NCBI RefSeq assembly: GCF_028641065.1
Contig: NC_073393.1
Span: forward strand, 16,120,001-16,184,000
Source: Leucoraja erinacea
Lineage: Eukaryota
Length of the DNA: 64,000 nucleotides
Direction: 5' to 3'
Shown here piece by piece: positions 3,482 to 61,445 of the stretch. The notes under the pieces were generated by a model, which saw only the letters and a list, made by a program, of their open reading frames with translations, was not told the DNA's origin and searched no databases. Within the stretch, counting starts at the first letter, position 1. Every line of letters begins with the position of its first letter. The translations under genes and the position numbers were made by a program.

Positions 3482-3588
3482 CTACAGCTTCGATTCCCAG
3501 CTTCGCTCCTTCATTAAAACATTTCCATCTGCATAAGGTACACGTTTCTCCTTCTGGCTAAATGTTACTGCTGATTGGAGTTGAGTAA
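3482..3588 (-). CDS. Candidate alternative cytoplasmic/terminal exon of IgSF gene A (VTQLQSAVTFSQKEKRVPYADGNVLMKERSWESKL*)
   Basis: TTGCAG acceptor, open in phase 1 like the other gene A exons, own stop. Shares a YAD motif (TATGCAGATG) with the 4408-4553 exon. Confidence 0.3.
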
Positions 3589-4407
3589 CTGCAAGTCGAC
3601 ATGATACAACGTAGAATCTATCATCTTTAGTCTGTGAAAGTAATTTATATCGGCCATTAGTCAATTACCCTCTGGTGGCACAAAGAATACGATTTTGAAA
3701 CAAAATACTACCAGTCTCAAAGAGAATGTATATACATTTCAGGATTCATACTAATCCATGAGACTGCACCAACGTGCAAACAAATATGGAATTGTTATCC
3801 GTCATCTTTAATGATACACGGGCACGGGAATAAAAGTGCTTTACTGCAAGTTGGGGAACTGCTTCTAATGAGTTGAGAAAACAGTAGTTTATTCTAAAAC
3901 TGTATTGCGCGCTACTGCTGGGGTGGATTATTCTGTGTTTTAGTGTTGTTTAGTTGAGTTAGCGATCTTCTAGTGATCTGCCAGTAGCAAATTGTTATCA
4001 GATTTTTTTTGCCATTCTTCATTAATTTTCTTTCCCTAATTTCACTTAGTGTTGATCTTCGGTGCTACTAATCATTCCAGGCCCACAGAACAACATTAGC
4101 TTTCTTCGTTATTGCCGATCATTTGTATGAACGTAAATGGAATCTGCTTTAGGGGGCAGACGAATGGTAGATTTAAAGTAGCAAGCATTTAATATTACGT
4201 ATTAAAAATGCTGATAATGCAAAGTACAATTTTGAGATTCGCTGATAGACAGTTTAACCTATATTCCCATGGGGTAGATTCTACGTTGAACCTGCCTGCA
4301 CAATTGTCAGGAAATCAATGGTCGCTCGGAAATAGAGTTGTTCATATTGTCCTTGGGCTGAAATCATCCAACATTGCGTACTCTACTTATCGAGACCACA
4401 CACAAGA

Positions 4408-7299
4408 TTAGAAGTTGTTCATCCAGAGTTGAACACACGTCTCGGCATCTGCATACAATGGTGTCTGTTCTTGTGCTTCTAGTGCGTGGTGGTGGAAAGA
4501 TTGGTGGAAACAGGGCCGCGACGTGAACGCTCCTTCCTTGACCCCATTGCATACTTGGTAGATTGAAAGTGTTATCACTGCACTCTGCTTAATATCCGTC
4601 GGCTTCGGCACCACTACCGAATTTCGGTGAATTCAGTAACCGATGGAGACAACAAAAATATACGACGATTGAAACATTGACATGGGAAGATGTAAGATTT
4701 ATATCTTGAGATTTATTTTTGTCATTGTTAATGGTCAGTTTTATTCTCAATGGTGTTATTGTTTTACAATCGAATAGCATTTACTGCCCTTGTTTTTTTT
4801 AACCACCATTATGGTTAAGACCGAGAATACCGTAAGATGTGTATCATTCTCACCATTTTGTGTCTTTAATTGGAGCCTTATCAAGATAATGGCCAAAACT
4901 AAAACTGCCAAGCCACCCACTGCGCATCCGATAATTAGGTTTTTATCTGCATCTTATGGATCAAGAGAGAAACAGGGGAAATGTGAACGACATAATATAT
5001 AGAAATATATACACATTTAGGAATTTAGCGATAACATTTGTGATTTTGAAACATTGATCTCTCATTACGAATAAACACGGGTCGTATCTAGCCATTGTCC
5101 CCGTGTTTGAGCAGCTGTATATTTAAATTCTAACCAGGTTGGACATATACACCCGCTCTTGTCTGCAAGTAATTACAATCTTACCTTTTTTGACGGTGTA
5201 GCTAAGAGCTGCTGGCACCTCAAGGGAAACATGATATACCAAGCAGGTGTAAACGGCGTCGCCCCAAGCAAGTTTAATTCCTTCCAAAAAACTGGAAACC
5301 TCATACAATCCTTCTGCGCTTCTATTTTTTACCGTTTCTATTCCGGTCAGAATTTCTTCGTTATTTCTCCGCCAGGAGATTTCTATTTTTTCCGGATAAA
5401 AGCTCGCCGTTTTACACACAAGTTTCCGAGACTGCGATGAAGTTCCTTTAACCGGGATGATTTTCAACGGAGTCGGTGTAGCTTTAACAGAGAGACAAAT
5501 ATATTATGTATTTTGTTTCCTTGGAATGGATGTTCACTCGCTTGTCTCACTTGAGAATTATATCACAATGTTATTATGACGCGTTAACCGCGCTATTGTT
5601 TGAACCGTTTTAAGTTGTCCTATTGTTATAAACTGGTCTCTCGTCGGCAGGAAAGTGACGGGGTAAATTAAAAGCACAAATAATGCGAGTCTATCAACTA
5701 GTGACCCATAAGAAAGGCGCCGCTGCTCTAAATAGGAGTATAAGAGTTAACGCGGGCGAAATTGGTATTAGACATTTGTGTTTCCCTCAAAACGAGGTGA
5801 TTTGTCGAGCTGTTTTAATTTCAGAGATTGCCACGGGAACAAAATGAAATTGTCACAGCTATCTATAATCAAGTGGTTGGGTGCGGCTGAAAACTGGGTC
5901 CTTGCGAGTGTTTGGGCAGTACTGTATTTTAATGCGCGGGGTGAAGGTTTACGAGGGTACAAATTTCATCAGGATAAATGTTTCCCGAACGCGAAGGGAA
6001 TGCTGAATATTTCTCAATCTGGGGAAGTGGCACACTGGAAGTTGAGCGTCGCTAAATAAATCATCACACGCACTGAAGTGGGGGAACTGAACATGCTCCT
6101 TCCCCCATGTTGGAATAACTCAGCGAATCGGCTAGCATCTTTGGAGGTATTGGACGGGTGACATTTCGGGTCGGGACATTTCCTTGGAAAACGTTGTTCC
6201 AGTACTTTTATTTAGCTCCAGGATAAAAACAACTTTCGTTTCTCGCTTGAAAACTACCACACACATCTGCCCAGTATGAACATTTACGAAAATATTCCAT
6301 GCGCAATTTGAAGCCGCGTATCCAAACAGATGCAAATGCAATTCTAACAACATTTCAAAATCAGCACTTTGGATTTAAAGCAGATTCGAATATTATCGCG
6401 ATAATTCTAGACAGTAACACAGAATTGTGTAATATGAATCGACAGGGCTACGTCAACTTTGATGTAAAAATGACCAGGAGAAAAACGAAGAGACAAGCAG
6501 GACAAACTACTTCCCACGCGACGGATTCATCCCGACCGGTTGAATATTCCAGGTATCTACTGGTTTACATGAGTCTTGCACCCTCTGTATCAATATCTTT
6601 CAGCGTTATAAACTGAATTCGGTGTCACATGGCTCTTATTGAGTACCAATATTTTATTTTTCTCGCGATCACTGAGTTTTATCCCCATGGTATGGGGATG
6701 ATAACATGGACTTCCACTGAAAAGGATACTTACCGAATACAGCTAGCAGCGTGCCACTTCCATTTCCGAGAGGTTGTTGCTGCTGTTTGATATGACAATA
6801 ATATTTCCCGGAGTCTGCGATATTCACATTCAGCAGAGTGAACGAACCGCTGCCCTTGTTTATATTAAATTGCTTTCTGCTGTCTGGCCGTATAAATGCA
6901 TTCTCGCTCTCTCTCCACCAGTAGACATCAGGAATAACTTGTAATATGTGATATTTGCAGAAAATTGAAACATTTCCACCTACGGCTTCATGCAAAACAA
7001 TCGGGAATTGGTCCACTTTGCTTGACGTTACTCTGGCGCCTGCCCCCCAAAATAAGGAAGATCATGGGCAGCAGTTGGTTAAGGTGATAACATGCAAAAA
7101 CAAAGCACAAGAGACATAAAATACAGAAATAAAATTACGATCCAGCATACGTCGAATTCGACAGGGATTACAATCAAGTATGTCGTGCCTGATTAAGGTG
7201 AACATTTCCAAATTAAGATTTTGTATTCAGGAAAATAAGCGTACCTTGCCAAACTATACTCAAGAAAGCCATGCAGCTAACTGCAACCTCCGCAGACAT
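4408..7299 (-). CDS. IgSF receptor gene A: leader + VJ-type V domain + C1-set domain + TM + cytoplasmic tail (~300 aa; SIRP/NKp30/VJ-C1-like)
   Basis: Phase-1 exons with GT/AG ends. Leader 7299-7245 (MSAEVAVSCMAFLSIVWQ). V 7039-6734 (FC..YWWR..DSGKYYC..GNGSGTLLAV). C1 5481-5185 (LVCKTASFYP..ISW..YTCLVYHVSL). TM 4952-4854 (NLIIGCAVGGLAVLVLAIILIR). Provisional tail 4553-4408. Joined length 903 nt with no internal stop. Confidence 0.85.
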
Positions 7300-12087: not shown

Positions 12088-13350
12088 TTATGAAGGGGAA
12101 ATCAAGCTTGACTAAACTTCTATAGGTCTAACATTTTTTGGAGGATGTAACAAGTAGAATGGATAAGGGAGGGCAGTGTATGTGGTGTATCTGGACTTTC
12201 AAAAGCCTTTGACAAGGTCCCCCGCAAGAGACTGGTGTGCAAAATTAGAACATGGTACTGGGGGTAGGGTAGGATAGAGAACTTGTTGGCAGACAGTAAG
12301 CAAAGAGTAGGATTTCACAGGTCCTTTTCAGAATGGCAGGCAGTGACTAGTGGGGTGCCGCAAGGCTCGGTGCTGGGCCCCCAGTTATTTACGATATATT
12401 AAAGTTTTGGCCGAGGGAATTAAATGTAACATCTCCACACAAAGCTGGGTGGCAGTGTGATCTGCGAGGAGGATGCTATGATACTGCAGGGTGACTTGGA
12501 TAGGTTGGGGGCGTGGGCTGATGCATGGCAGGTGCTCTGTAATGTAGATAAATGAGTCTTTATCCAATTTGGTGGCGAGAACAGCAATCAGATTATTAGT
12601 TCTGAATGGTGTCAGATTAGGAAAAGGGGAGGTGGAACGAGACCTGGGTGTGCTTGCACATCAGTCACTGAAAGTATGCATGCAGGTACAACAGGCAGTG
12701 AAAAAAGCTAATGGCATGTTGGCTGTTATTGCGAGAGGATTTGAGTTTAGAGGCAAAGAGGTTCTCCTGCAGTTGTTCAGGTCCCCGGTGAGACCGCACC
12801 GGGAGTATTGTGTGCAATTTTGGTCTCCCAATTTGAGGAAGGACGTTATGGCTATAGAGGGAGGGCACCATGGATTCGTTCCCCGGGTTAATTCCCGGAT
12901 GACGGGACTGACATATGATGAAATAATTGGTCGACTGGGTTTATATTTAGAAGGGCGAGAGAGAATCTTCTAAGAAGCATATACCATTCTTAAAGGATTG
13001 GGCAGGTTATATGCAGGAAACATGTTTCTGATGTTCGGAAAGTCCAGAACCAGGGGTCACAGTTTAACAATAAGCGGTGGGCCATTTAGGACTGAGATGA
13101 GGAACAACATTTTCACCCAAAGCGTTATGAATCTGTGGAATTCTCTGCCACAGAAGGCAATGGAGTTCAATTCACTGGATGTTTTCAAGAGAGTGTTAGA
13201 TTTAACTCTTAGAGCTAAAGGAATAAAGGGATAAGGGGAAAACGCAGGAATGGGGTACTGATTTTCGATGATCAGACATGATTATATTTTATGCCGGTGC
13301 TGACTCGAAGGGCCGAATGGCCATCTCCTGCACCTATTTTTCTATGTTTC
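12088..13350 (+). mobile_element. CR1/HER1-type LINE, 5'-truncated, frameshifted RT plus 3' tail
   Basis: ORFs ERDLGVL..QAVKKANGML..RPHREYCVQFWSP and [16 protein letters not shown]; ends GCACCTATTTTTCTATGTTTCTAT. Confidence 0.9.
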
Positions 13351-15070: not shown

Positions 15071-18000
15071 TTAAAACCGCGCATGCATAGATTGGTCTCC
15101 TTTCCTGTCAGTCACCCGGGGCGGCGGCGCCCAGACTGGTACGGCGACGTCCCTTCCGGCGCACCATCGCCGCACTGATTGGCCGTCTCCTCTGTCACGA
15201 TAAAGCTGAAGGAGCGGAGCGAGCAGTGTTTGTGCATCAGTGGAGTGCGGAGCGGCCCAAAGCCTGTCTGACTGCGAGGCCCACTGCTGCAACCTCTAGA
15301 CCTTGCGGAAGTGAGGAGGGAGAGTGGTGGATTGAGGGAGACGGGCACAGGTGGGGCCAGGGCTGGGCGCTGGGTGCTGGAGGGTCATTCCCCCCACAAC
15401 CCTTCCCCCGTCCATCCCCATCCTTTTGCATCCCACCCCCCTCAGCGGCAGTCCACGTCAGCGGCAGCAGTAGGCCACGGTAGAGGCATGCCATGGCAGC
15501 GGTAGGCCATAGCAGCGCCCCCTCCCCCACCAGCCCCCGCTGGCCCTCACCTGAAGCCACCCCACTCCATGGGCCGCTGAACGATCCTACCGGCCCTCCC
15601 TGAAACCATTCCCATCCTCACCTGCAGGGCACTCCCCCCCCCCCCCCCCCCCCCCCCCCCAGGTCAACCGACCCCCACCGGAACGATCCCCACGTGTCCC
15701 TGCCTGAAGCCGGTGGGTCGCGCCAGCAGTAGGCCATGACAGCAATAGGCCATGACAGCAATAGGCCATAAACAGAGGAAACATAGAAATTAGGTGCAGG
15801 AGTAGGCCATTCGGCCCTTCGAGCCTGCACCGCCATTCAATATGATCATGGCTGATCATCCAACTCAGTGTCCCGTACCTGCCTTCTCTCAATACCCCCT
15901 GATCCCCTTAGCCACAAGGGCCCACATCTAACTCCCTCTTAAATATAGCCAATGAACTGGCCTCAACTACCCTCTGTGGCAGAGAGTTCCAGAGATTCAC
16001 CACTCTCTGTGTGAAAAAAGTTCTTCTCATCTCGGTTTTAAAGGATTCCCCCCCTTATCCTTAAGCTGCGACCCCTTGTCCAGGACTTCCCTAACATCGG
16101 GAACAATCTTCCTGCATCTAACCTGTCCAACCCCTTAAGAATTTTGTAAGTTTCTATAAGATCCCCTCTCAATCTCCTAAATTCTAGAGAGTATAAACCA
16201 AGTATATCCAGTCTTTCTTCATAAGACAGTCCTGACATCCCAGGAATCAGTCTGGTGAACCGTCTCTGAACTCCCTCTATGGCAATAATGTCCTTCCTCA
16301 GATTTGGAGAACAAAACTGTACGCAGTACTCCAGGTGTGGTCTCACCAAGACCCTGTACAACTGCAGTAGAACCTCCCTGCTCCTATACTCAAATCCTTT
16401 TGCTATGAAAGTCAACATACCATTCGCTTTCTTTACTGCCTGCTGCACCTGTATGCCTACCTTCAATGACTGGTGTACCATGACACCCAGGTCTCGCTGC
16501 ATCTCCCCCTTTCCCAATCGGCCACCATTTAGATAATAGTCTGCTTTCCCGTTCTTGCCACCAAAATGGATAACCTCACATTTATCCACATTATACTGCA
16601 TTTGCCCACTCACCCAGCCTATCCAAGTCACCTTGCAGTCTCCTAGCATCCTCCTCACAGCTAACACTGCCCCCCAGCTTAGTGTCATCCACAAACTTGG
16701 AGATATTGCCTTCAATTCCCTCATCCAGATCATTAATATATATTGTAAATAGCTGGGGTCCCAGCACTGAGCCTTGCGGTACCCCACTAGTCACTGCCTG
16801 CCATTGTGAAAAGGATCCGTTTACTCCTACTCTTTGCTTCCTGTTTGCCAGCCAGTTCTCTATCCACATCAATACTGAACCCCCAATGCCTTGTGCTTTA
16901 AATTTGTATACTGTACTAATCTCTTATGTGGGACCTTGTCGAAAGCCTTCTGGAAGTCCAGATACACCACATCCACTGGTTTTTTCCCCCCTATCCACGC
17001 TACTAGTTACATCCTCGAAAAATTCTATAAGATTCGTCAGACATGATTTACCTTTCGTAAATCCATGCTGACTTTGTCCAATGATTTCACCACTTTCCAA
17101 ATGTGCTGCTATCCCATCTTTAATAACTGACTCTAGCAGTTTCCCCACTACCGATGTTAGACTAACTGGTCTGTAAATTCCCCATTTTCTCTCTCCCTCC
17201 CTTCTTAAAATGTGGGGTTACATTTGCTACCCGCCAATCTTCAGGAACTACTCCAGAATCTAAAGAGTTTTGAAAGATTATTACTAATGCATCCACTATT
17301 TCTGGAGCTACTTCCTTAACTACTCTGGGATGCAGCCTATCTGGCCCTGGGGATTTATCGGCCTTTAATCCATTCAATTTACCCAACACCACTTCCCGGC
17401 TAACCTGGATTTCACTCAATTCCTCCAACTCCTTTGACCCGCGGTCCCTGCTATTTCCGGCAAATTATTTATGTCTTCCTTAGTGAAGACGGAACCAAAG
17501 TAGTTATTCAATTGGTCCGCCATAACAGCGATAGGCTACAGCAGTGGCAGCAGCAGGCAACAGCAGTGGCAGGCACTGCAGCACGACCCCCCACGCCCCG
17601 CACTGGCCCTCGACAGCCCACACCTGAAGCCGTCCCCATCCCTCGGCTGCAGGAGACTCATTGTTTGGGATGAATGCCCAATCATTAGGAGGGAGAGCTT
17701 TGAAGCGGTGGACAAAACTCTTCAAGATGTAAACACCAACACTAAGCCTTTTGGCGGCATTCTTACCATTTGTTGTGGCGATTTTTGACAAATCCTTCCT
17801 GTAGTGAAAAGGGGAAATGATGCTGATGTTGAAAATTCCTGCATCAAGAAATCCGACGTGGAGACTTTTTACCAAGTTTCAATTGCAGACGAATATGCGA
17901 TTGAGAGAGGGAGAAGACGACTATTCTCAATTTTTGTTGAAAGTTGGAGAAGACGAGATTTTAAAGAATGAAGACGATGAAATTGAAATGCCAGAAGACA

Positions 18001-19378
18001 TGGTTCTATCAGCAAAAACACTGGAGGATTGTATTGATTTCATCTATCCCGCATTTGACATCCTGCAGAATTATTCTCCGACAATTGTATCCTGGTTCCG
18101 CACAATGATACAATGAGAAACATCAATTCTACATGTATCTATCAGACGCTTCCCTGAAATCATTAAGGAGTATTTTCTTTCATTGCTGTCACTTAGGGAA
18201 CTATTGCTACTCACTTCCCAACAGAATTCCTTGATTCACGCGAGATCTCTGGATTACCACCACACAAATTGTAGTTGAAAAAAGAATCTATGATCATGTT
18301 AATGAGAAACGTGGAACCCTCAAAGCTATGCAATTGAATGAGGATGATTGTGGAAGAGTGACACAATAATCTGATTGTTGCAAGAATCAACATGGGAGCC
18401 TTCAAAGATGACATTGTTCTCATTCCGAGGATAATGCTCAATTTGACATTCCCCTTCAGTGGAGCCAATTCCCGATTCTGTCAAGTTTTGCTATGACGAT
18501 CCGTAAAAAGCAAGGACAAACCATGGAGAACGTGTTGATATACCTCGCGAAACTGATATTTCAGCATGGACTACTAATGTGGCTCTTAGCTGAGGAAAGG
18601 TGAAGGAAAATGTCAGAGTATTTCTGAAGGATGGAACATCGACCAAGAATGTTCATTAAACACGTGCTTGGTTGAACGATGACTTCTGAGTTAATTCTCA
18701 GATTTTCTTCATGTTAAAGTTTGACCATTCAATAATGTCTCTATATTAAAACTGTGTCTTTTTTTCATCAACAGCAAAGCGACATTGAGACGCAGTGAGC
18801 AACAAAACGGAACAAGAGATGCAGCAAGAACTGACCTCAATAAATCTCATCTTTAACTTTAAAATTGTTGTTATATTTTAAGAGTTATTAACATTTTAAG
18901 CTTTAATAAATCCCTTTTCCACTTGCCGTGCCCATCAGCTGCGCATGCGCAGTAATAACTGCGTGTTCTACGTCAATGGGAACCCTATGGGCGGGAATGG
19001 CTGTACCGTCGGAGAGCTGCTAAGAGTGGATGGAGGGATTGAGGGGGGGGTGGAGTGAGTGCAAGGAGGGCGGGTGAAGGGCAAGTGGGGGGAGGGGAGG
19101 GGGGGGGGGATTGAGGGGAGGGAGGGGGTGCAAGAGGGGAGGTGGAGGGAGTGTGGGGAGGAGGAGGGGGGTTGAGGGGGAAGGAGGGTGAGGGGAGGTG
19201 GAGTGAGTGTGCGGAGGGGGGTGGAGGGGGTGGGGGGGGGGGGGGGGTGAGGGGGGGGTTGAGGGGGGATCGGAGGGGGGGGGGACAACGGGAACCCGTC
19301 AGCCGTGCCTGCGCAGTTGCGGGGCTATGGGTGAGTGGTGGAATATTGCGTTGGGGGACCAGGCCTCCCGCGCGACAC
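15071..19378 (+). mobile_element. Helitron remnant with pseudogenised PIF1-like helicase, interrupted by a LINE (15778-17520)
   Basis: 17648-18670 translates, with stops and shifts, to LIVWDECP..FEAVDKTLQD..KPFGG..GDF*QILPVV, LQTNMRL, PTEFLDS..SGLPPHKL, IMLMRN, VLIPRI, FAMTIRKKQGQT. These are Helitron helicase motifs. Outer boundaries approximate; no CTAG terminus seen. Confidence 0.75.
15778..17520 (-). mobile_element. Young CR1/HER1-type LINE (RT domain and 3' tail), nested in the Helitron
   Basis: Minus-strand ORFs [68 protein letters not shown]; tail AAACATAGAAA at 15779. Confidence 0.95.
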
Positions 19379-20123: not shown

Positions 20124-20188
20124 TCACACATTTATTGAGCTGTTTTCATCTGCATTCACTGCGCCGAAGTTTTCTTTGTTTTGCGAAG
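20124..20188 (-). CDS. Candidate alternative terminal exon of gene B (ASQNKENFGAVNADENSSINV*)
   Basis: CTGCAG acceptor, phase 1. Aligns without gaps to the 21181 exon (TGA..ACA, CAATAAATGT at the same offsets), with Tyr replaced by Asn. Confidence 0.25.
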
Positions 20189-20478
20189 CTGCAGATATAT
20201 CACATCGTATATTCCACTAGTTATAGTCTGGAAAGTAATCAAATACCATCCGTTAATTCATTAACACGCATGACGAAAGACAAAATTGCCACGAATTTAT
20301 CAATTACCACCTTCAGTTTTTTTAAAGGCAAATACTAATTTTGAATGTCTGCGTATCACCGACTATGCCAGTATTGACAGTCATCCACAATTGCCCTTCA
20401 GAATTTAGACTTGGTCTATATTTGTGCACCCTAGTGGGTGAAAGGGAAGTACAGTATTGCAGTTCACCCATGCACCTG

Positions 20479-21059: not shown

Positions 21060-24000
21060 TTAAATGCAAAACAAAGTTCGCGTGAATGTTGATGTCTCTT
21101 GGTGTCTCTTTTGTTTGGAGACATTTATTGCAATGTAATCACTTTGAATATTTGTAGCCGATAATTGACTGTTAGTTTGACCTGCAGAACACATGACAGT
21201 ATTTCTAAGGCTGTAGTTCTTTACCCACATGCAATTTATAGTCAGCATATGGATTGCGGAAATTTGCTGACGCTGTAGAAAATGACAGATAGAAACACGG
21301 TTTATTGTTTTCACATGTCTGGTATTCTGTTGTATAGTCTGATTTGGCACCTCATTTTAGTCTGGTCTCTCTGTCCACTGCCTATTGTGTACATCTATTT
21401 ATGAGCACTGAATGGAAATGTTTTCTGTTGCTTAACTGACGATTGCCATTGCGTCTTGCGCTCCAAAATTAGCTTCACGTTAGGCTACCTGTTTCAATCC
21501 TCTTACATCACTGATATTCATCTGACGATATGTAAAAATTCCTCAGACATATCTTGCTCGAAAAGCATGGCAATTACAATCGGCTAAAGGCCGCTCAATC
21601 CGACCAGTTCCAATGATCAGTCAAGAGTGGAAGACATAATCAAGGTTGCTATCAAGTAGCACTTGCTCACCAATAATTTCTCAGCGCTACTCAATTTCGG
21701 TCTTCCTAAAATGATGCTGCTCCACTATTTGGTCGACAAATTGACCAGAATTCCCACAGATTACATGATATTAATTACATATTCCACCAAGTAAGGTGAT
21801 TTAAGGTCTTAATGCAATCTATAAGTTTGCTAAAAATTGCGGATGCATGGGCATATCCAAGGTTGGAACTTATCTCAAGTATAGAAACTGGTGGTCAGGG
21901 ACAAATGCCTCACATGTAAAATTACTGTTCCAAGTACTCTTCACATTAAGGCAGCATTTGACTAACTGTGGAAATAGGAAGCCCCCGAAAAATGGAATTC
22001 ACTGGGCATCAAAGTGAACAATCGATAGTTAGTTTACCTCTTACAGGAAACAATATGGTTGTGGTTGTTGGAGTTCCCAGCCTGGAACATCTCCTTCGAT
22101 GTTCTCCAATGCAACATCCTATGGGCAGCCACCTTAAGCTCCTTTATCAAAACATGTTGCTGCAATGCTAAGGTCATAACTGGGTATGTTAGATGATGAT
22201 TGCACAAAGCTCTGTTCCATTTGGAATGTTTCAGCAGACACGGGACGACGTACCCACGCCTCAGACCATCCTTGAGCGGATTTGCTGGCTTTACCTTGCA
22301 TTAAAGGTTATTCCCTTATCATGTATCTATGCACTGCAATTGGATCGATTGTAATCATGTATTGTCTTTCTGCTGACTGGTGAGCACGCAACGAAAGCTT
22401 TTTCACTGTACCTCAGTACACGTGACAATAAACTAAACTAAACTTGAACAGCATTTCCATCTCGGCTGATAAGTGACTTTCATATTCAGCCTTTCAAGAA
22501 GACACCCCATTTTCTTTTACGCGGTGGCCCTACCAGTAATGCCTTCATCCAGAAAACGTGTAAAAGAAAAGTACTTAAAACTGATGCTTCATATCGACCT
22601 AGTTGGATAAATGCAAATAATATTCCTAAGGGCGGATCTGATACGGTTAGCTGCAAGTTTTAACTGCAAGTTTTAACTGCAATTATAGAATATAGGAGTG
22701 TTTTCCTTCTATATACTGTTCTACGATATTTAGAAGATAAATTACATATATTTTAATTGCTGAATCTAATACTTCGGCTACGACTCCAATACTCCATTCC
22801 TTTATTCAAATATGAATGTAAATAGAATTTTATGCTTACCCGTTTTTCACTCGATTTGCTTCCATGTAATTTCTAATAACGCCTTGGAACAGAAAAGAAA
22901 ATCATTTAAAATAAAAATGCCCAGTTAAAATGAACTTACTCCTTTGATACTAATTGCAGTTATTCTCTAAAGTCTGTCTGGAGATGTTTATGTCAAATTG
23001 ATGTAATATTTTTTCTGGTGCACTACACTCCTACACTCTCCTGTTCCTTGACTATACTACCCTCAATTTAATGGATCTTGACGTGAACCAAATTGCGTAA
23101 AACCGATAGCGTATCAATAGCCTGGTTATCTCTCACAATTACAATTAAAATCAAGATCAAACAGACGATACCAGATGGTCAATAAGTTAACAACTGTTAC
23201 AAATCATTAGCGAAAATCAAGCTTCAAATTATTACTTTATGCTGTTTGATCTGCTGGTGAATTCATATCTACAAAGTGTAAAATATGATTAATTTCAGGT
23301 AAAATTGCAATCTTGATGTGCGATAGATTGGTGAATAATTCGAATAGCGAGGCGAAATGTTTTCACTACAAGTTATAGTTTAAATTTCATAATGAATGAT
23401 CAATCAGATAGAGCTTTGAAAATCACGTATCTTTCTTAATGATCACTATGTTAACATTTGAATTTACAAATGTAAACATTTGTTGCAACAGACAGCGCTC
23501 TTACCATTTAATGGTTTGTACATTAGTTCTGCAAAAATTATTAACAGAGCTATCAATGCCAATCCGCCCTGCACACACGTGAGAATCAAGATAATGGAAT
23601 TGGGATCTACAAGAACAAAATATTAAAAAGTTAAAAAATATATGCATATGTAAGTACGTACATAAATAGTGCACGAGGTAGAGCATTTCAAAGATGTATT
23701 TAAATCCTCACAGCACATAAAATATACAAACAATACCAAATGCACGTTCATGATGGGATTTATGAAGAAAAGCAAATCCCATTCCAAAAGGTCAGCCATT
23801 TTGACGAAAAACGTTTGCTTTTCTATTACAATACCACACCAGGTAATGGAAACCAACCGCAACAAGCCGCGCCAGCCTTCTATATTTCTGGTTGAATACT
23901 GAATATTTGCCTTAACACGTTTTACAGAGAGCGGTTAGCACAATAAGATAACCCAAGACAGGTCATAAGACCCTTAAACACTTAACATATAAAATTGACA

Positions 24001-27000
24001 CGAATTGACGTATTATGATATATTAGAGGGCCTGACCAAACAATAATCGATAAGAATAAATATCTCTCCATATGAAGACATCTATATGTATCTCTCTTGG
24101 AATCGTATCTGGATCAGCAAGATTATGACTATTTTATCTGACTATATGACTGTGGACTCAATCCACTCAATATTTTCCTGGAGAAATGGCCCATTCATCT
24201 GGAAAACTATCAGCTAATTCAATGTTGGATAACTTGGATATCGAGCACCAATTCATTCAGGGCACCACTGCATATTCCACTGGAGCTGTCCAACAAGTCC
24301 GCTATGGAATTGCCATATAATGTTCTTGCTATTGCTCTCACCCTCGTAGCATTCACCCTGTTAGCAATACCCGCATGTACATTTTACGGTTTTGAATAAG
24401 CATGTCGTTACACAATCTACCATCTCAATTTTGAATGAAATACTTCCTTTCTGTTCTCTCTTTTCTATGGTTCTACTCAAAACAGGCACTGACTTTTAAC
24501 AATGTCCTTGTCTGTATGGCATCGACATCCCACTCCGAGCATATCATCCCACCCTTCAGCACTCGATATGTCTTTAGTGTAGTCTGGAGACACAGCGCGG
24601 AAAAAGGCCCACCGAGTCCGCACCCACCAATGATCCCGCACAATCACACTATCCTACACACACTAGGGTCAATTTACAAATATCAAGCCAATTAACCGAG
24701 AAACCTGAACGTCTTTGGAGTGTGGGAGGAAATCGTAGGTCTCAGACAAAAATCCACGCGGTCACGGGGAAAACGTACAAACTCCGTACAGACGGCACCC
24801 GTGGTCGGGGTCGAACCGGGTTCTCCGGCGCTGCAAGCACTGCAAAGCTGCAACTCTACGTCTGCGCACATGCACGTTTGCGTCTACGTCTATAGAAGTA
24901 TGAGGAGCAGATATTTCTCCAATTATAGTTCATGAGGTTCAACGCAATTATTTCTCTTCCTTGCCACATATTCTGTTCTGATGACACTTTTGGACCACAC
25001 TTGAATGCCTTCAATAACATTTACATTTCGGTAACATTGATGGACTGCCTATCCCCCACTCTATCTTGCTTCCTCCAAGTCCTTCATTCTGGCACTTGCC
25101 ACCCAGAGACCTGGCTATTCCTGATCAGATTTTCTTAATCTACGCAGCATAACCGCGAGGTCTCGCAAAACACATCACAAGCCCGAGAACAAATCCCATT
25201 ACGTATCAAATCATTGTTTTTTTGTCATGTTTATTCCGTATTAATTTGATTTTCAAATTTGTAATTTGTTCACATCACTGCCTGACTTTCTTGCTCCTTA
25301 TGTCTACTAACTCGTTCGTCCGTGCGACTTCCATCAAAGGGTCTCGACCTGAGGCGGAGTTTCTTCCCACAGGACATCAGGACTGTAAACTCTGATCTCA
25401 CCAGAGAGTAATTGCTGTTGTGTCTTTTTTTAAATGTAAATACTGGTTCTGTACTGTTCTGTTGTTCTGTTGTTTTGCACAATGCCGCAGGCATTGTCAC
25501 TTTCATTTCACTGTACATCTTGTATGTGTATGTGACAAATAATGTGGACTTGACTTGACTTGACCCGTTCCTTCTCTCCATGGATGATGCCTAGCCCGCT
25601 GAGTTGCTCCAGCATTTTCGACTTCTATGAAATGTATTTTGTCCCTTTATCGTTTTCAAATCGATTTACTCCCAATGCAATTTTCTCCCACTCATTAAAG
25701 TGCGGCATTCTCTTATTCTACTTCACGTTTCTTCTTTTAAAATTGTCTTAAGGTCGGCATTGTGCAAGCATTTAATCATCTGCCCATTGGGATGATTAAT
25801 GCTGGTACATTGAAGCGTTGGTGTAAAAATGATTCACTCTTTCTCCTTATATTATTTCTATAGATCTAAAATTGTAATCCGCTATTCTGATCATTCTCAA
25901 CTGCAAATATTCCGAGTCTTACCTGGTTCGACGATGTAGGTGAAACTGGCCGGTACCTTAAGTGAGATATGCGATACTAAACAGGTGTACACATCTTGAC
26001 CCCGGGCAGGCTGCGCTATTTCCAAAACGCTGGAAGCTTCATACAATCGTTCCGCATTCCTGTATTTCACGGTTTCAATGCCGGTTAGAATGTCCACATT
26101 ATTTTTTCTCCAGAAGATTTCTAATGTCTCTGGATAAAACGCATCTGTTTTACACACGAGTTTTGGAGCAGCCAAACTATCTTCAAGTGAAACAATTTTC
26201 AAAGGAGTTGGGGAATCTTAAGCAGAAGAAAAAAAAAGTTATATTGCATGTTTCCATTACACTTCAGTGAACTATATTATAATTATATATTACGTTGGTT
26301 AACCATGGATTTTTTTGAACACTGGATATACAAACTGAGCGATTTTAGACATTATACAAGGAGGGTTAATATTTGGGTAATATGGGATACAGGCGCCAAT
26401 GTTCTGAATGGAAACGACTGGCTTTCTATGTTAACTTTAACGCTTGGGACTTTATCGGTATTTCCTTTATTGAAAATAATGGTATTAAAGTAGAGATGTC
26501 ACAGATTTCTCGAGTCGGGTGGTTACGTGCATTGTTAGGGTGTAGTTACGTTCATTGATTACATTTCGGTGCCCAAAATTGATTGGTCAATTGATGTTCA
26601 GATCTTGGGATGGAGATTTTCAATGGTGCATACTTCACTATGGGAATGTACAGAGTTCAACACGGTCATGCGCCGAGTCAAATATAAGATTTGGATATCG
26701 AAGCATCAGAAAGATACCTGGGCAATGAATGAACACGGGAAGCAGCTGAAGTGGAATATCAGTGATGTTGCTGATATGGAATATCCCAACTTTAATGTTG
26801 CGTACAATACCTAATCTAGGGGAAAGTTGCTAAAATTGTTCGCCATTTCTTTCCTCGGTGAAAGGAAAACTGACTTTCTACCACAGCTATTCATTTCAGT
26901 TCAAGACGCAGTTCAAATCGTCCATTCCATTATATTTCTTGGGATTTATTAGCACCGGCATTTTATCAAGGAACATTTTATAGACAACGAATTTATATGT

Positions 27001-27601
27001 AAATGACAGAGAACTGAAAATCTCTTAATTTTCGAACATGCACACTCACCGAGCACAGTGAGCAGACAGCCACTTCCATTCCCAATGTGTTGATTCTGGT
27101 GCTTTGCTTGACAGTAATATGTTCCCGAGTCTGCAACATTGACATTATGGAGAACAAATGTTCCGCTCCCGCTACCTACATGAAATTGTTTTCTCGTATC
27201 TGGTTCCAATGATGTTCTCATGCCTTCTCTCCACCAAAAAATGGAAATAGTATCTTGCGATATGGGAAATTTGCAGAACATGGTGAAGTTTGCACCGATG
27301 GGGACATCTGCATCATTAGGAAATTGATACACTGAGCTCGAAGATACTTCCACAACTGCCGAAAATTAAGTAAGACATTAGTTGCATTTACTGGATAAGG
27401 AACAAATAGCAGATTAATACAAAACAATCATGGAAGAAGGGCATCCAAATGGAAGGGGCATTTTTGCTACATCTGCCGGATGTAAACAGGAAAAAAATGT
27501 AAAATATGAATTGCAATTCAGGAACAACACAAATATCTAAACTCACCATGCCAAACTATACCACATAGCGCCATGTACCGTACAGGCAATTTCGCCAACA
27601 T
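21060..27601 (-). CDS. IgSF receptor gene B, paralogue of gene A: leader + VJ-type V + C1-set + TM + cytoplasmic tail with ITIM-like SDYIAI
   Basis: Leader 27601-27547 (MLAKLPVRYMALCGIVWH). V 27355-27050 (306 nt, same length as gene A). C1 26216-25923. TM 23606-23505 (SIILILTCVQGGLALIALLIIFAELMYK). 43-nt exon candidate 22882-22840 (GVIRNYMEANRVKN). Provisional tail 21181-21060. Ectodomain and TM exons are solid; the 3' end is uncertain. Confidence 0.8.
24575..24860 (-). mobile_element. tRNA-derived V-SINE (HE1-like)
   Basis: Reverse complement of the 40085-40375 copy: ACGCGGTCACGGGGAAAACGTACAAACTCCGTACAGAC; B-box-like GGTTCGACC on the minus strand. Confidence 0.75.
25340..25564 (+). mobile_element. 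LINE 3' end (Rex1/Babar-like) with (GACTT)n tail
   Basis: AGTTTCTTCCCACAGG-CATCAGG (SFFPQ.IR), ...ATGTGACAAATAA followed by GACTTGACTTGACTTGAC. Family assignment is inference. Confidence 0.5.
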
Positions 27602-60832: not shown

Positions 60833-61445
60833 ATGTATGGAAAAAATGAATTTAACCCCTTCCTCATTCTGGCCGTTATTTGCACAGGTATTCTTCAAAA
60901 ACACTTGCACATGAAGCGACGAGTTCACTTAGCAAACTAATGATCATTTGTTTTGTCGCTGTTTTTAATTCATTGTGTCAGGTCTTTGGAAGGTATCTGT
61001 TCATGTGGTGTTTGTACATTAAAGCAAGTCGCCATTTCCATGGATTTGTTAAAATTAACTGAAAGACGAGAAAGTTTGTTGTTGTCCTGAGCCTTTCGTA
61101 AATATACACACTGTTTTCCGTTTATTTTTGCAGCATTCGCCAAGGTTACGCAGGTGCATCAAATGCCGGATAAAGTCTATGCATTGGTAGGGCAGAACGC
61201 GACTTTGCAATGCGCGTTCGGGCTATTTAGAGATAAAAATAACATTAGGATGTATTGGTGGAAAACAGGAGAACGGAAGTTTTTCAAAGAGGGAGAAGAT
61301 TCCAGGAAAGTGTTCCAGGTGGAATCAAAAGCGAGCGCTTCGCTTAAGATTGTGAACGTGAGATTCGGAGACGCCGGAATCTATTACTGCAGAGTGGAGG
61401 GTGAATACACTGGAAATGGAACAGGTGCAACCCTTGAAGTAAAAG
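60833..61445 (+). CDS. IgSF gene C (partial): leader + VJ-type V exon, divergent relative of genes A/B
   Basis: Leader 60833-60887 (55 nt, MYGKNEFNPFLILAVICT, phase 1). V exon 61134-61445 (VHQMP..GQNATLQC..MYWWK..DSRKVF..DAGIYYC..GNGTGATLEV) with TTTGCAG/GTGAG ends. No C1 or TM exon recognised before 64000. Confidence 0.85.

What the first reader, a model, noticed from the sequence alone, without database searches (positions are those of the whole stretch)
6734..7039. Very compact V domains apparently lacking C''/CDR2 (VNAR-like)
Seen: only 53 residues lie between the two canonical cysteines in genes A and B, and 58 in gene C. The WW(R/K) C strand is followed within about ten residues by the D(S/T)RK D-strand motif. 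Established: conventional V-set domains have roughly 65-75 residues between the cysteines, and shark IgNAR VNAR is known for a deleted CDR2 region. Inference: a short V scaffold, either related to VNAR or convergent with it.
Basis: partly seen in the sequence, partly recalled or inferred. Interest (0 to 1): 0.7.

Follow-up and report, generated by a model that had tools for sequence, protein, structure and literature searches.

The report
Nanobody-shaped tips on shark paired receptors
This skate exon encodes an unusually short antibody-like domain, predicted to lack the same loop that shark nanobodies (VNAR) lack, and shared by a large family of non-rearranging cell-surface receptors of sharks, rays and chimaeras that likely act as on/off immune sensors and likely reached this compact shape independently of VNAR.

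Summary
Confirmed: 53, 53 and 58 residues lie between the cysteines, against 65-77 in 60 other V domains and 59 in the VNAR of this genome. AlphaFold models (pLDDT 93-94) show no C'' strand and at most a one-residue C'. Gene A's best structural matches are VNARs, tied with TCR V-alpha and an I-set domain. The short V is not an oddity of this gene. It is standard (53-59) in a family of germline-joined VJ-C1-transmembrane receptors: 30 V exons on this chromosome, with relatives from chimaera to rays. Some members have four-tyrosine SIRP-alpha-like tails and others have arginine-bearing anchors. Kinship with VNAR is unlikely: no RSS, another chromosome (human 16q13-type neighbours), VNAR ranks 25 of 45 against the family profile, and V and C1 trees separate them. 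A shared origin was not rejected (AU p=0.15). The J-strand Phe/Trp that pairs V domains is absent in 69 of 69, and 45 carry an N-glycan site there. Best reading: a convergent, likely single-domain ligand sensor on an apparently undescribed SIRP-like paired family. Gene A's own tail looks degenerate. Several key papers could not be read.

The parts
7245..7299 (-). Gene A leader exon (ATG, 55 nt, phase 1)
6734..7039 (-). Gene A single-exon VJ domain: 53 residues between Cys; predicted strands A A' B C (C') D E F G, no C''; N-G-S-G-T in place of the J motif F/W-G-x-G-T
5185..5481 (-). Gene A C1-set exon (Pfam C1-set 45.5 bits)
4854..4952 (-). Gene A transmembrane exon; no charged residue in the hydrophobic stretch; one Cys near its start
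3482..3631 (-). Gene A last-exon homologue, out of frame relative to the two-tyrosine exon of paralogues; no ITIM consensus in the open frame; the preceding tyrosine exon was not found
27547..27601 (-). Gene B leader exon
27050..27355 (-). Gene B single-exon VJ domain, 53 residues between Cys
25923..26216 (-). Gene B C1 exon
23505..23606 (-). Gene B transmembrane exon
20156..20227 (-). Gene B last-exon homologue, shortened; contains one ITIM-consensus stretch if used in phase 0 (use not shown)
60833..60887 (+). Gene C leader exon
61134..61445 (+). Gene C single-exon VJ domain, 58 residues between Cys; its C1 and TM exons lie beyond the window (G000:C17:16185660, 16190681)

Best explanation
The exon is the germline-joined, non-rearranging V domain of one gene in a tandem family of leader-VJ-C1-transmembrane receptors of cartilaginous fish; all members share a short V predicted to lack C''/CDR2, and they likely work as SIRP-like paired receptors whose V tip likely binds a ligand as a single domain and likely became VNAR-shaped by convergence. 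SHOWN: the exon structure; family-wide shortness; no RSS; two kinds of C-terminus in one cluster (tyrosine-motif tails, arginine in the anchor); location between AMFR/NUDT21-like genes and next to CIAPIN1/COQ9. PREDICTED: the fold. INFERRED mechanism: (1) the BC, C'D, DE and FG loops at the tip bind a self or microbial surface ligand; (2) V-V pairing of the antibody type is disfavoured because the J-strand Phe/Trp is gone and usually replaced by an N-glycan site; (3) tyrosine-tail members recruit SHP-1/2 and inhibit, while arginine-anchor members signal through an ITAM adaptor, probably FcR-gamma/CD3-zeta type; (4) gene A itself has an uncharged anchor and a degenerate tail, so it is likely a non-signalling member, like SIRP-gamma (adhesion, decoy or ligand).
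For: Gene A splices in frame L-V-C1-TM, 252 aa. 18 V exons, each with a C1 exon, lie in 15.91-16.35 Mb, with 12 more at 13.6 and 19.9-20.1 Mb. RSS near 0 of 18 V exons; controls: VNAR yes, 4 of 6 TCR V. In the 18-gene cluster, 7 have tyrosine-motif exons and 4 have an Arg in the anchor, two of them short-V genes. 32 of 67 database relatives have an ITIM-consensus string after the TM, and one of these is only juxtamembrane. 47 of 47 profile hits are cartilaginous-fish proteins or one unnamed record. The family is one clade in the V tree (100/98) and the C1 tree (99/97). VNAR sits among antigen receptors (93/90, not starred) and IgNAR C domains among Ig C domains. VNAR ranks 25 of 45 against the family V profile, and 28 of 45 without the C-D segment; BLASTP gives no alignment of gene A with it. 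At the J Phe/Trp position: N48 K8 D5 E4 T2 S2, no F/W, of 69; N-x-S/T in 45 of 69. The best ESM-Atlas feature hits are SIRP-alpha clusters, 0.96. The family profile aligns over V and C1 of SIRP-alpha, 68.5 bits, and its third domain, 47.3 bits. Recent duplicates: dN/dS about 1.3 in V loops, 0.64 in V framework, 0.36 in C1 (15 vs 3 changes, not significant).
Against: A family+VNAR clade is not rejected (p-AU 0.153, lnL 11.8 lower); the trees use about 100 columns and only one VNAR. Light chains score as high as SIRP-alpha against the profile (70.5 and 68.7 bits), and the C1 profile's best single domain shown is lambda CL, so a special SIRP kinship is not shown. A nearly invariant exposed Trp (62 of 69) with Phe/Tyr and Tyr on the GFC face could be a dimer surface. 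No expression, ligand or signalling data exist here. Glycan occupancy is untested, and 24 of 69 lack the site at that position. Gene A's tail rests on failing to find exons.
Confidence: 0.65

Rival explanations
1. Shared origin with VNAR: the family descends from the same pre-RAG VJ-C1 gene lineage that gave IgNAR its C''-less V, so the short V is homologous.
For: VNARs are the top structural matches of gene A (Z 14.7-15.0, rmsd 1.8-2.1 A, 93-97 aligned). Both occur in the same animals. The C1 domain is of antigen-receptor type. The AU test does not reject the clade.
Against: The structural lead is under 1 Z and disappears for the 58-residue form. Identity to VNARs is 22-28%, the same as to TCR V. 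VNAR ranks 25 of 45 by profile. The C-C' turn differs: W-W-K-x-G in the family, W-Y-R-Q-K-P-G in the VNAR, with 13-15 versus 16 residues from Trp to the D-strand Arg. They lie on different chromosomes, C17 vs C15. The C1 tree keeps them apart.
Confidence: 0.1
2. True SIRP orthologues: the family is the cartilaginous-fish branch of SIRP, with one C1 and a shortened V, moved to another chromosome.
For: VJ + C1 + four-tyrosine tail + short-tailed partners match SIRP as described in PMC7206415. Atlas score 0.96. NCBI automatic names are often 'SHPS-1-like'.
Against: One C1, not two. SIRP-alpha V has 65 residues between the Cys (counted). Activating members carry Arg near the outer end of the anchor (the SIRP-beta Lys is recalled). 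SEP-domain genes (NSFL1C/UBXN2 type; the SIRP linkage is recalled) lie on C4 and C21, and 110 kb around the C21 gene held no Ig domain. No SIRP sequence was available for a tree.
Confidence: 0.2
3. An ordinary I-set adhesion-type domain that was recruited in front of a C1, rather than a truncated V.
For: The predicted topology equals IgI as defined in PMC12051499. NCAM2 Ig1 Z 14.5, tied. Pfam I-set passes its cut-off (24.9 vs 23.7). The W-x-K-x-G turn is I-like (recalled).
Against: Pfam V-set scores higher (31.6). The A-strand Gln is kept (62 of 69). There is a long FG hairpin and a G-x-G bulge (59 and 66 of 69), and no F-strand Asn. It is an N-terminal single exon ahead of a C1. I-set domains were not in the trees.
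Confidence: 0.12
4. The family is already described under another name (PRARP or one of the 'VJC1' genes of Ohta et al. 2019), so only the short-V remark is new.
For: PRARP is a non-rearranging V-C1 receptor with tyrosine motifs (recalled; named in passages of PMC10751288 and PMC11599192). Those primary papers could not be opened.
Against: PRARP is cited as MHC-linked, whereas PBX genes lie on C10, C31 and C39, not C17. Other V-C1 genes of this genome (C13, C1596) are separate lineages. Ten searches listed no paper on this cluster.
Confidence: 0.25

Closest known systems
IgNAR variable domain (VNAR; e.g. PDB 8HT3, 2Z8W, 4HGK)
   Same: Predicted topology without C'' and with a very short C'; closest folds to gene A (Z about 15, rmsd 1.9 A); similar Cys spacing (59 vs 53-58); likely unpaired.
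   Different: Germline-joined VJ with no RSS; one C1 plus TM and tail instead of Ig heavy C domains; another chromosome; 22-28% identity; separate in trees; G-strand glycan site.
SIRP family (SIRP-alpha/beta/gamma; PDB 2WNG, 4I2X)
   Same: J-like V, C1-set domain, four-tyrosine inhibitory tail, short-tailed partners, tandem cluster.
   Different: One C1; V about 10 residues shorter; Arg-type anchors; not at the SEP-gene locus; CD47-like ligand not found (inconclusive).
PRARP / non-rearranging VJ-C1 genes
   Same: VJ-C1-TM with tyrosine motifs (recalled).
NKp30/NCR3
   Same: Single-exon VJ with G-strand Asn; highest identity (30%) among the 50 rows for gene C (6YJP, Z 13.3); Arg anchor (recalled).
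   Different: NKp30 has no C1 and is MHC-linked; the frog NCR3-annotated V domains have 69 residues between the Cys.
UrIg / UrIg2
   Same: Non-rearranging elasmobranch VJ-C1 gene (PMC12227049).
   Different: Secreted, several C1 domains, full-length V (73 between the Cys in the likely UrIg here); lowest score of 45 against the family V profile.
I-set domains (NCAM Ig1, basigin, titin)
   Same: Eight-strand topology; tied Z-scores.
   Different: The family keeps V-type A-strand and J-type G-strand signatures and a CDR3-like FG hairpin.

Membership tests
IgNAR / VNAR | V segment followed by RSS and rearranged with D and J | tested here: not met
   RSS near 0 of 18 V exons; control VNAR positive, 4 of 6 TCR V positive; J strand in the same exon in 30 of 30
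IgNAR / VNAR | No C''/CDR2, very short C' | tested here: met
   AlphaFold models of genes A and C; prediction only
IgNAR / VNAR | Ig heavy-type constant domains, at the antigen-receptor complex | tested here: not met
   One C1 in its own clade; C17, while the IgNAR gene is on C15
IgNAR / VNAR | V domain groups with VNAR | tested here: inconclusive
   Free trees separate them; rank 25 of 45; AU p=0.153; NARTCR V not obtained
I-set domain | (AA')BCC'DEFG topology | tested here: met
   prediction only
I-set domain | F-strand Asn, short FG turn, no J-type G-x-G | tested here: not met
   Pfam V-set 31.6 over I-set 24.9 bits
SIRP | J-like V followed by two C1 domains | tested here: not met
   One C1 exon per V in the 18-gene cluster; a few database models repeat C1
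SIRP | Four-tyrosine inhibitory tail plus short-tailed partners | tested here: met
   definition. Gene A itself lacks the tail
SIRP | Locus beside NSFL1C (recalled) | tested here: not met
   SEP genes on C4 and C21; flanks here are NUDT21/AMFR-like and CIAPIN1/COQ9; which SEP gene is NSFL1C was inferred
SIRP | Binds CD47 | not testable with these tools
   Pfam CD47 search blank, and blank in controls too
SIRP | V and C1 group with SIRP in trees | not tested
   No SIRP sequence could be fetched as a stored protein
PRARP | Orthology by sequence and synteny | not tested
   Paper not held; no sequence available
NKp30/NCR3 | Single V without C1, MHC-linked | tested here: not met
   C1 exon present; no PBX gene on C17
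UrIg/UrIg2 | Secreted V-C1-C1-C1 in MHC or AgR complex | tested here: not met
   TM exon present; separate V and C1 clades
NITR | VJ plus I(J) domain | tested here: not met
   Second domain is C1; definition

The most novel reading that the evidence does not exclude
This family is a living, expanded relic of the pre-RAG VJ-C1 receptor whose C''-less V was the direct source of the shark nanobody domain. VNAR's missing CDR2 would then be inherited, not a deletion from a TCR/Ig V, and sharks would keep dozens of germline 'innate nanobody' receptors with on/off signalling.
Probability: 0.1. Interest if true: 0.85.

Novelty: new variant of a known kind. Interest (0 to 1): 0.5.

Why it matters
If right, cartilaginous fish evolved a CDR2-less, single-domain V twice: once in rearranging IgNAR and once in a large germline receptor family kept from chimaera to rays. 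That gives a natural test of why C'' is dispensable, and a second natural scaffold of about 95 residues, shorter than VNAR, with a glycan rather than polar residues as the likely block to pairing. [quoted passage not shown] It lies outside the MHC and antigen-receptor regions by the markers tested, and is a candidate for shark NK or myeloid paired receptors. Loss of C'' alone is known (PD-L2, VNAR), so the gene at these coordinates is an ordinary member of its family.

Tried and rejected
- Homodimer prediction of the V-C1 ectodomain of the sawfish relative P0002: no verdict, score 0.00, alignment not used. It is not evidence either way.
- Expression: no RNA holder listed. Two small possible RNA runs covered only a repeat. 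Contigs of two related organisms cover the gene as DNA.
- Two degenerate motif searches for VNAR in G000 found none. It was then found through an Ig heavy C domain. NARTCR V was not found in the 50 kb of C989 read.
- Pfam CD47 search blank, controls blank too. Chemokine search gave no C17 hit.
- A V-only profile against PDB sequences was dominated by multi-domain proteins and was uninformative. A V-only homologue search gave 1 hit.
- CTLA-4 and SIRP V domains were not among the 50 rows shown; this does not exclude them.
- CD28 family: rejected, as its members have one V and no C1.
- Elephant-shark genome supplement: no SIRP, V-C1, ITIM or NKp30 hit in the one file held.
- IMGT numbering was not run; positions were assigned from the model and motifs.
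- The automatic 'basic TM' class was too loose (it counts flanking Lys/Arg) and was not used as a count.
- IgM/IgW labels in my trees are tentative and may be swapped.
- Atlas search of the gecko relative gave BTLA-, FCRL- and NCR3-like leads only.

Full report
OBSERVATION. The finding is one 306-nt exon on the minus strand. It splices in frame with a leader (7245-7299), a C1 exon (5185-5481) and a transmembrane exon (4854-4952), all phase 1 with GT-AG ends. The window holds three V exons with 53, 53 and 58 residues between the cysteines. Pfam scores gene A as V-set (31.6 bits, cut-off 26) above I-set (24.9, cut-off 23.7), and the next exon as C1-set (45.5). For comparison, 60 V domains parsed from the best Pfam V-set hits in the same genome span 65-77; only 150 of 904 candidates were scored and I fetched part of them, so the set leans to canonical domains. 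The genome's IgNAR V has 59 (identified by E=1.6e-37 to PDB 8HT3).

THE FAMILY. The window is G000:C17:16120001-16184000. Gene A finds 30 V exons, all on C17: 18 at 15.92-16.33 Mb, 11 at 19.89-20.10 Mb and one at 13.62 Mb (a lower bound). All carry the J strand in the same exon and have 53-58 residues. None of the 18 has an RSS within 120 nt, while the VNAR and 4 of 6 TCR V controls do. Database relatives come from Callorhinchus, Heptranchias, Heterodontus, Scyliorhinus, Mustelus, Chiloscyllium, Pristiophorus, Pristis, Narcine, Mobula, Hypanus, Hemitrygon, Amblyraja and Leucoraja, under mixed automatic names. 65 of 67 parsed have 53-59; 2 were not parsed. The 58-residue form is the widespread one. 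The 53-residue form of genes A and B is a clade within it (98/97) that lost 2 residues in BC, 2 in C'-D and 1 in DE; other members reach 53 by a DE-loop deletion alone. Flanking genes by Pfam are NUDT21 (NUDIX_2), an AMFR-like exon (weak), CIAPIN1 and COQ9, plus a helix-hairpin-helix gene. The first four are human 16q13 genes (recalled). PBX genes lie on C10, C31 and C39 and SEP-domain genes on C4 and C21, so by these markers the locus is neither an MHC paralogon nor the SIRP locus.

FOLD. AlphaFold2 on a 70-row alignment (pLDDT 93.4) gives strands A, A', B, C, a single bridge at C', then D, E, F and a split G, with no C''. Gene C (pLDDT 94.5) has neither C' nor C'' by DSSP. For gene A, VNARs take Foldseek ranks 1-8 and VIA ranks 1-11 (Z 14.7-15.0, rmsd 1.8-2.1 A, 93-97 aligned, 22-28% identity); TCR V-alpha (14.6) and NCAM2 Ig1 (14.5) are tied with them. 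For gene C the VNAR is 13th among ties, and NKp30 has the highest identity, 30%. Passages of PMC12051499 and PMC8470474 state that VNAR, PD-L2 and I-set domains lack C'' and that VNAR and I-set superimpose, so any C''-less V will match VNAR. The domain keeps V/J signatures: A-strand Gln 62 of 69, G-x-G 59 and 66 of 69, and a long FG hairpin.

KINSHIP WITH VNAR. In a 66-row V tree the family is one side of a 100/98 branch. The VNAR lies in the antigen-receptor group (93/90), and the family's neighbours are tetrapod single-exon VJ domains (83/72, weak; those rows were picked because they matched gene A). Forcing family+VNAR costs 11.8 lnL and is not rejected (p=0.153; 34 of the 66 rows, quick tree). 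VNAR ranks 25 of 45 against the family V profile, and 28 of 45 when the C-D segment is left out. In a 39-row C1 tree the family is a 99/97 clade apart from all Ig, IgNAR and UrIg C domains (79/83, weak). Convergence is favoured, not proved.

HOW IT LIKELY WORKS. In the 18-gene cluster, 7 genes have exons with motifs of the form L/T-x-Y-x-x-L and T/V-x-Y-x-x-V/I, and 4 have an Arg in the anchor, two of them 53-residue genes; the rest are unresolved. This is the paired-receptor pattern. SIRP-alpha has V-C1-C1 and four tyrosines, binds through its BC, C'D, DE and FG loops, and has short-tailed partners (passages of PMC7206415). The Atlas puts a full-length member nearest SIRP-alpha clusters (0.96), but light chains score as well by profile. 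The J-strand Phe/Trp that packs in V-V pairs (role recalled) is absent in 69 of 69 distinct sequences, and 45 have N-x-S/T there. I infer an unpaired V with a glycan on the pairing face; a conserved exposed Trp argues for some binding role of that face. Four independent pairs of recent duplicates give dN/dS near 1.3 for V loops (15 vs 3 changes), 0.64 for framework and 0.36 for C1; this is suggestive only. Gene A has an uncharged anchor, no detectable first tyrosine exon, and a last exon out of frame with its paralogues. A direct splice would stop one residue later. It is likely a non-signalling member; transcripts are needed.

LITERATURE. Ten searches listed no paper on this cluster. I read: PMC12227049 part 1 of 8 and passages; PMC11599192 part 1 of 6 and passages; passages of PMC10751288, PMC12051499, PMC8470474, PMC7206415 and bioRxiv 2021.06.11.448072; and a term search of the one supplement held for PMC3964593. 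Ohta 2019, Fu 2019 (PRARP), Flajnik 2012 and 2023, and Dornburg and Yoder 2022 were not held. What I say of them, and of Kinlein 2021 and Janes 2023, is recalled, and they or their supplements may already list these genes. An unreviewed note of this scan on a neighbouring window reached the same paired-family reading; I checked its Arg exon, but it is not independent support.

VERDICT. Real, family-wide, predicted C''-less VJ domain on an apparently undescribed SIRP-like VJ-C1 paired-receptor family; most likely convergent with VNAR. New variant of a known kind; interest 0.5.

Noticed in passing
L147 (G000:C1596:32001-42000), 862-1218 and 4545-4904 +: Another single-exon VJ-C1 gene with a short V (61 residues between Cys) that is outside this family in both trees; possibly a third independent short V.
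   Followed up: partly
L146 (G000:C13:5570001-5580000) and G000:C13:5512769-5514882: Two V-C1 genes whose V carries a CD28H-like E-I-P-P-P FG loop; its C1 is the best non-family scorer (51.9 bits). Candidate PRARP or CD28H-like gene with a C1.
   Followed up: partly
P0080 (gecko), P0034/P0027 (turtles), P0073 (frog): Tetrapod tandem-V receptors with short V domains (51-62 between Cys); the gecko one has a two-tyrosine tail and scores 59 bits against the family V profile, far above the rest. Possible tetrapod survivors without C1; synteny untested.
   Followed up: partly
G000:C17:15985884 and 16110526: Copies (94-96% identical) of gene A's TM exon and downstream 2 kb without their own V and C1; the second sits behind another gene's TM exon, suggesting tail swapping or alternative anchors.
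   Followed up: partly
G000:C17:15957929 and 15959231: One gene has two tandem TM exons, one with Cys and one with Arg at the same place: a possible route from neutral to activating anchor.
   Followed up: no
window 4380-4547: Very high-copy short repeat inserted between gene A's TM exon and last exon.
   Followed up: no
window 16038-17464 (-) and 12548-12973 (+): Broken LINE-type reverse-transcriptase pieces, judged by recalled motifs.
   Followed up: no
window 17504-18116 (+): Fragments resembling a PIF1/Helitron-type helicase, judged by recalled motifs.
   Followed up: no
L141-L142 (G000:C15:44798001-44818000): IgNAR gene: germline VNAR with RSS and at least five C domains, about 0.2 Mb from a TCR-alpha/delta-like V, in line with the linkage in PMC12227049.
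   Followed up: partly
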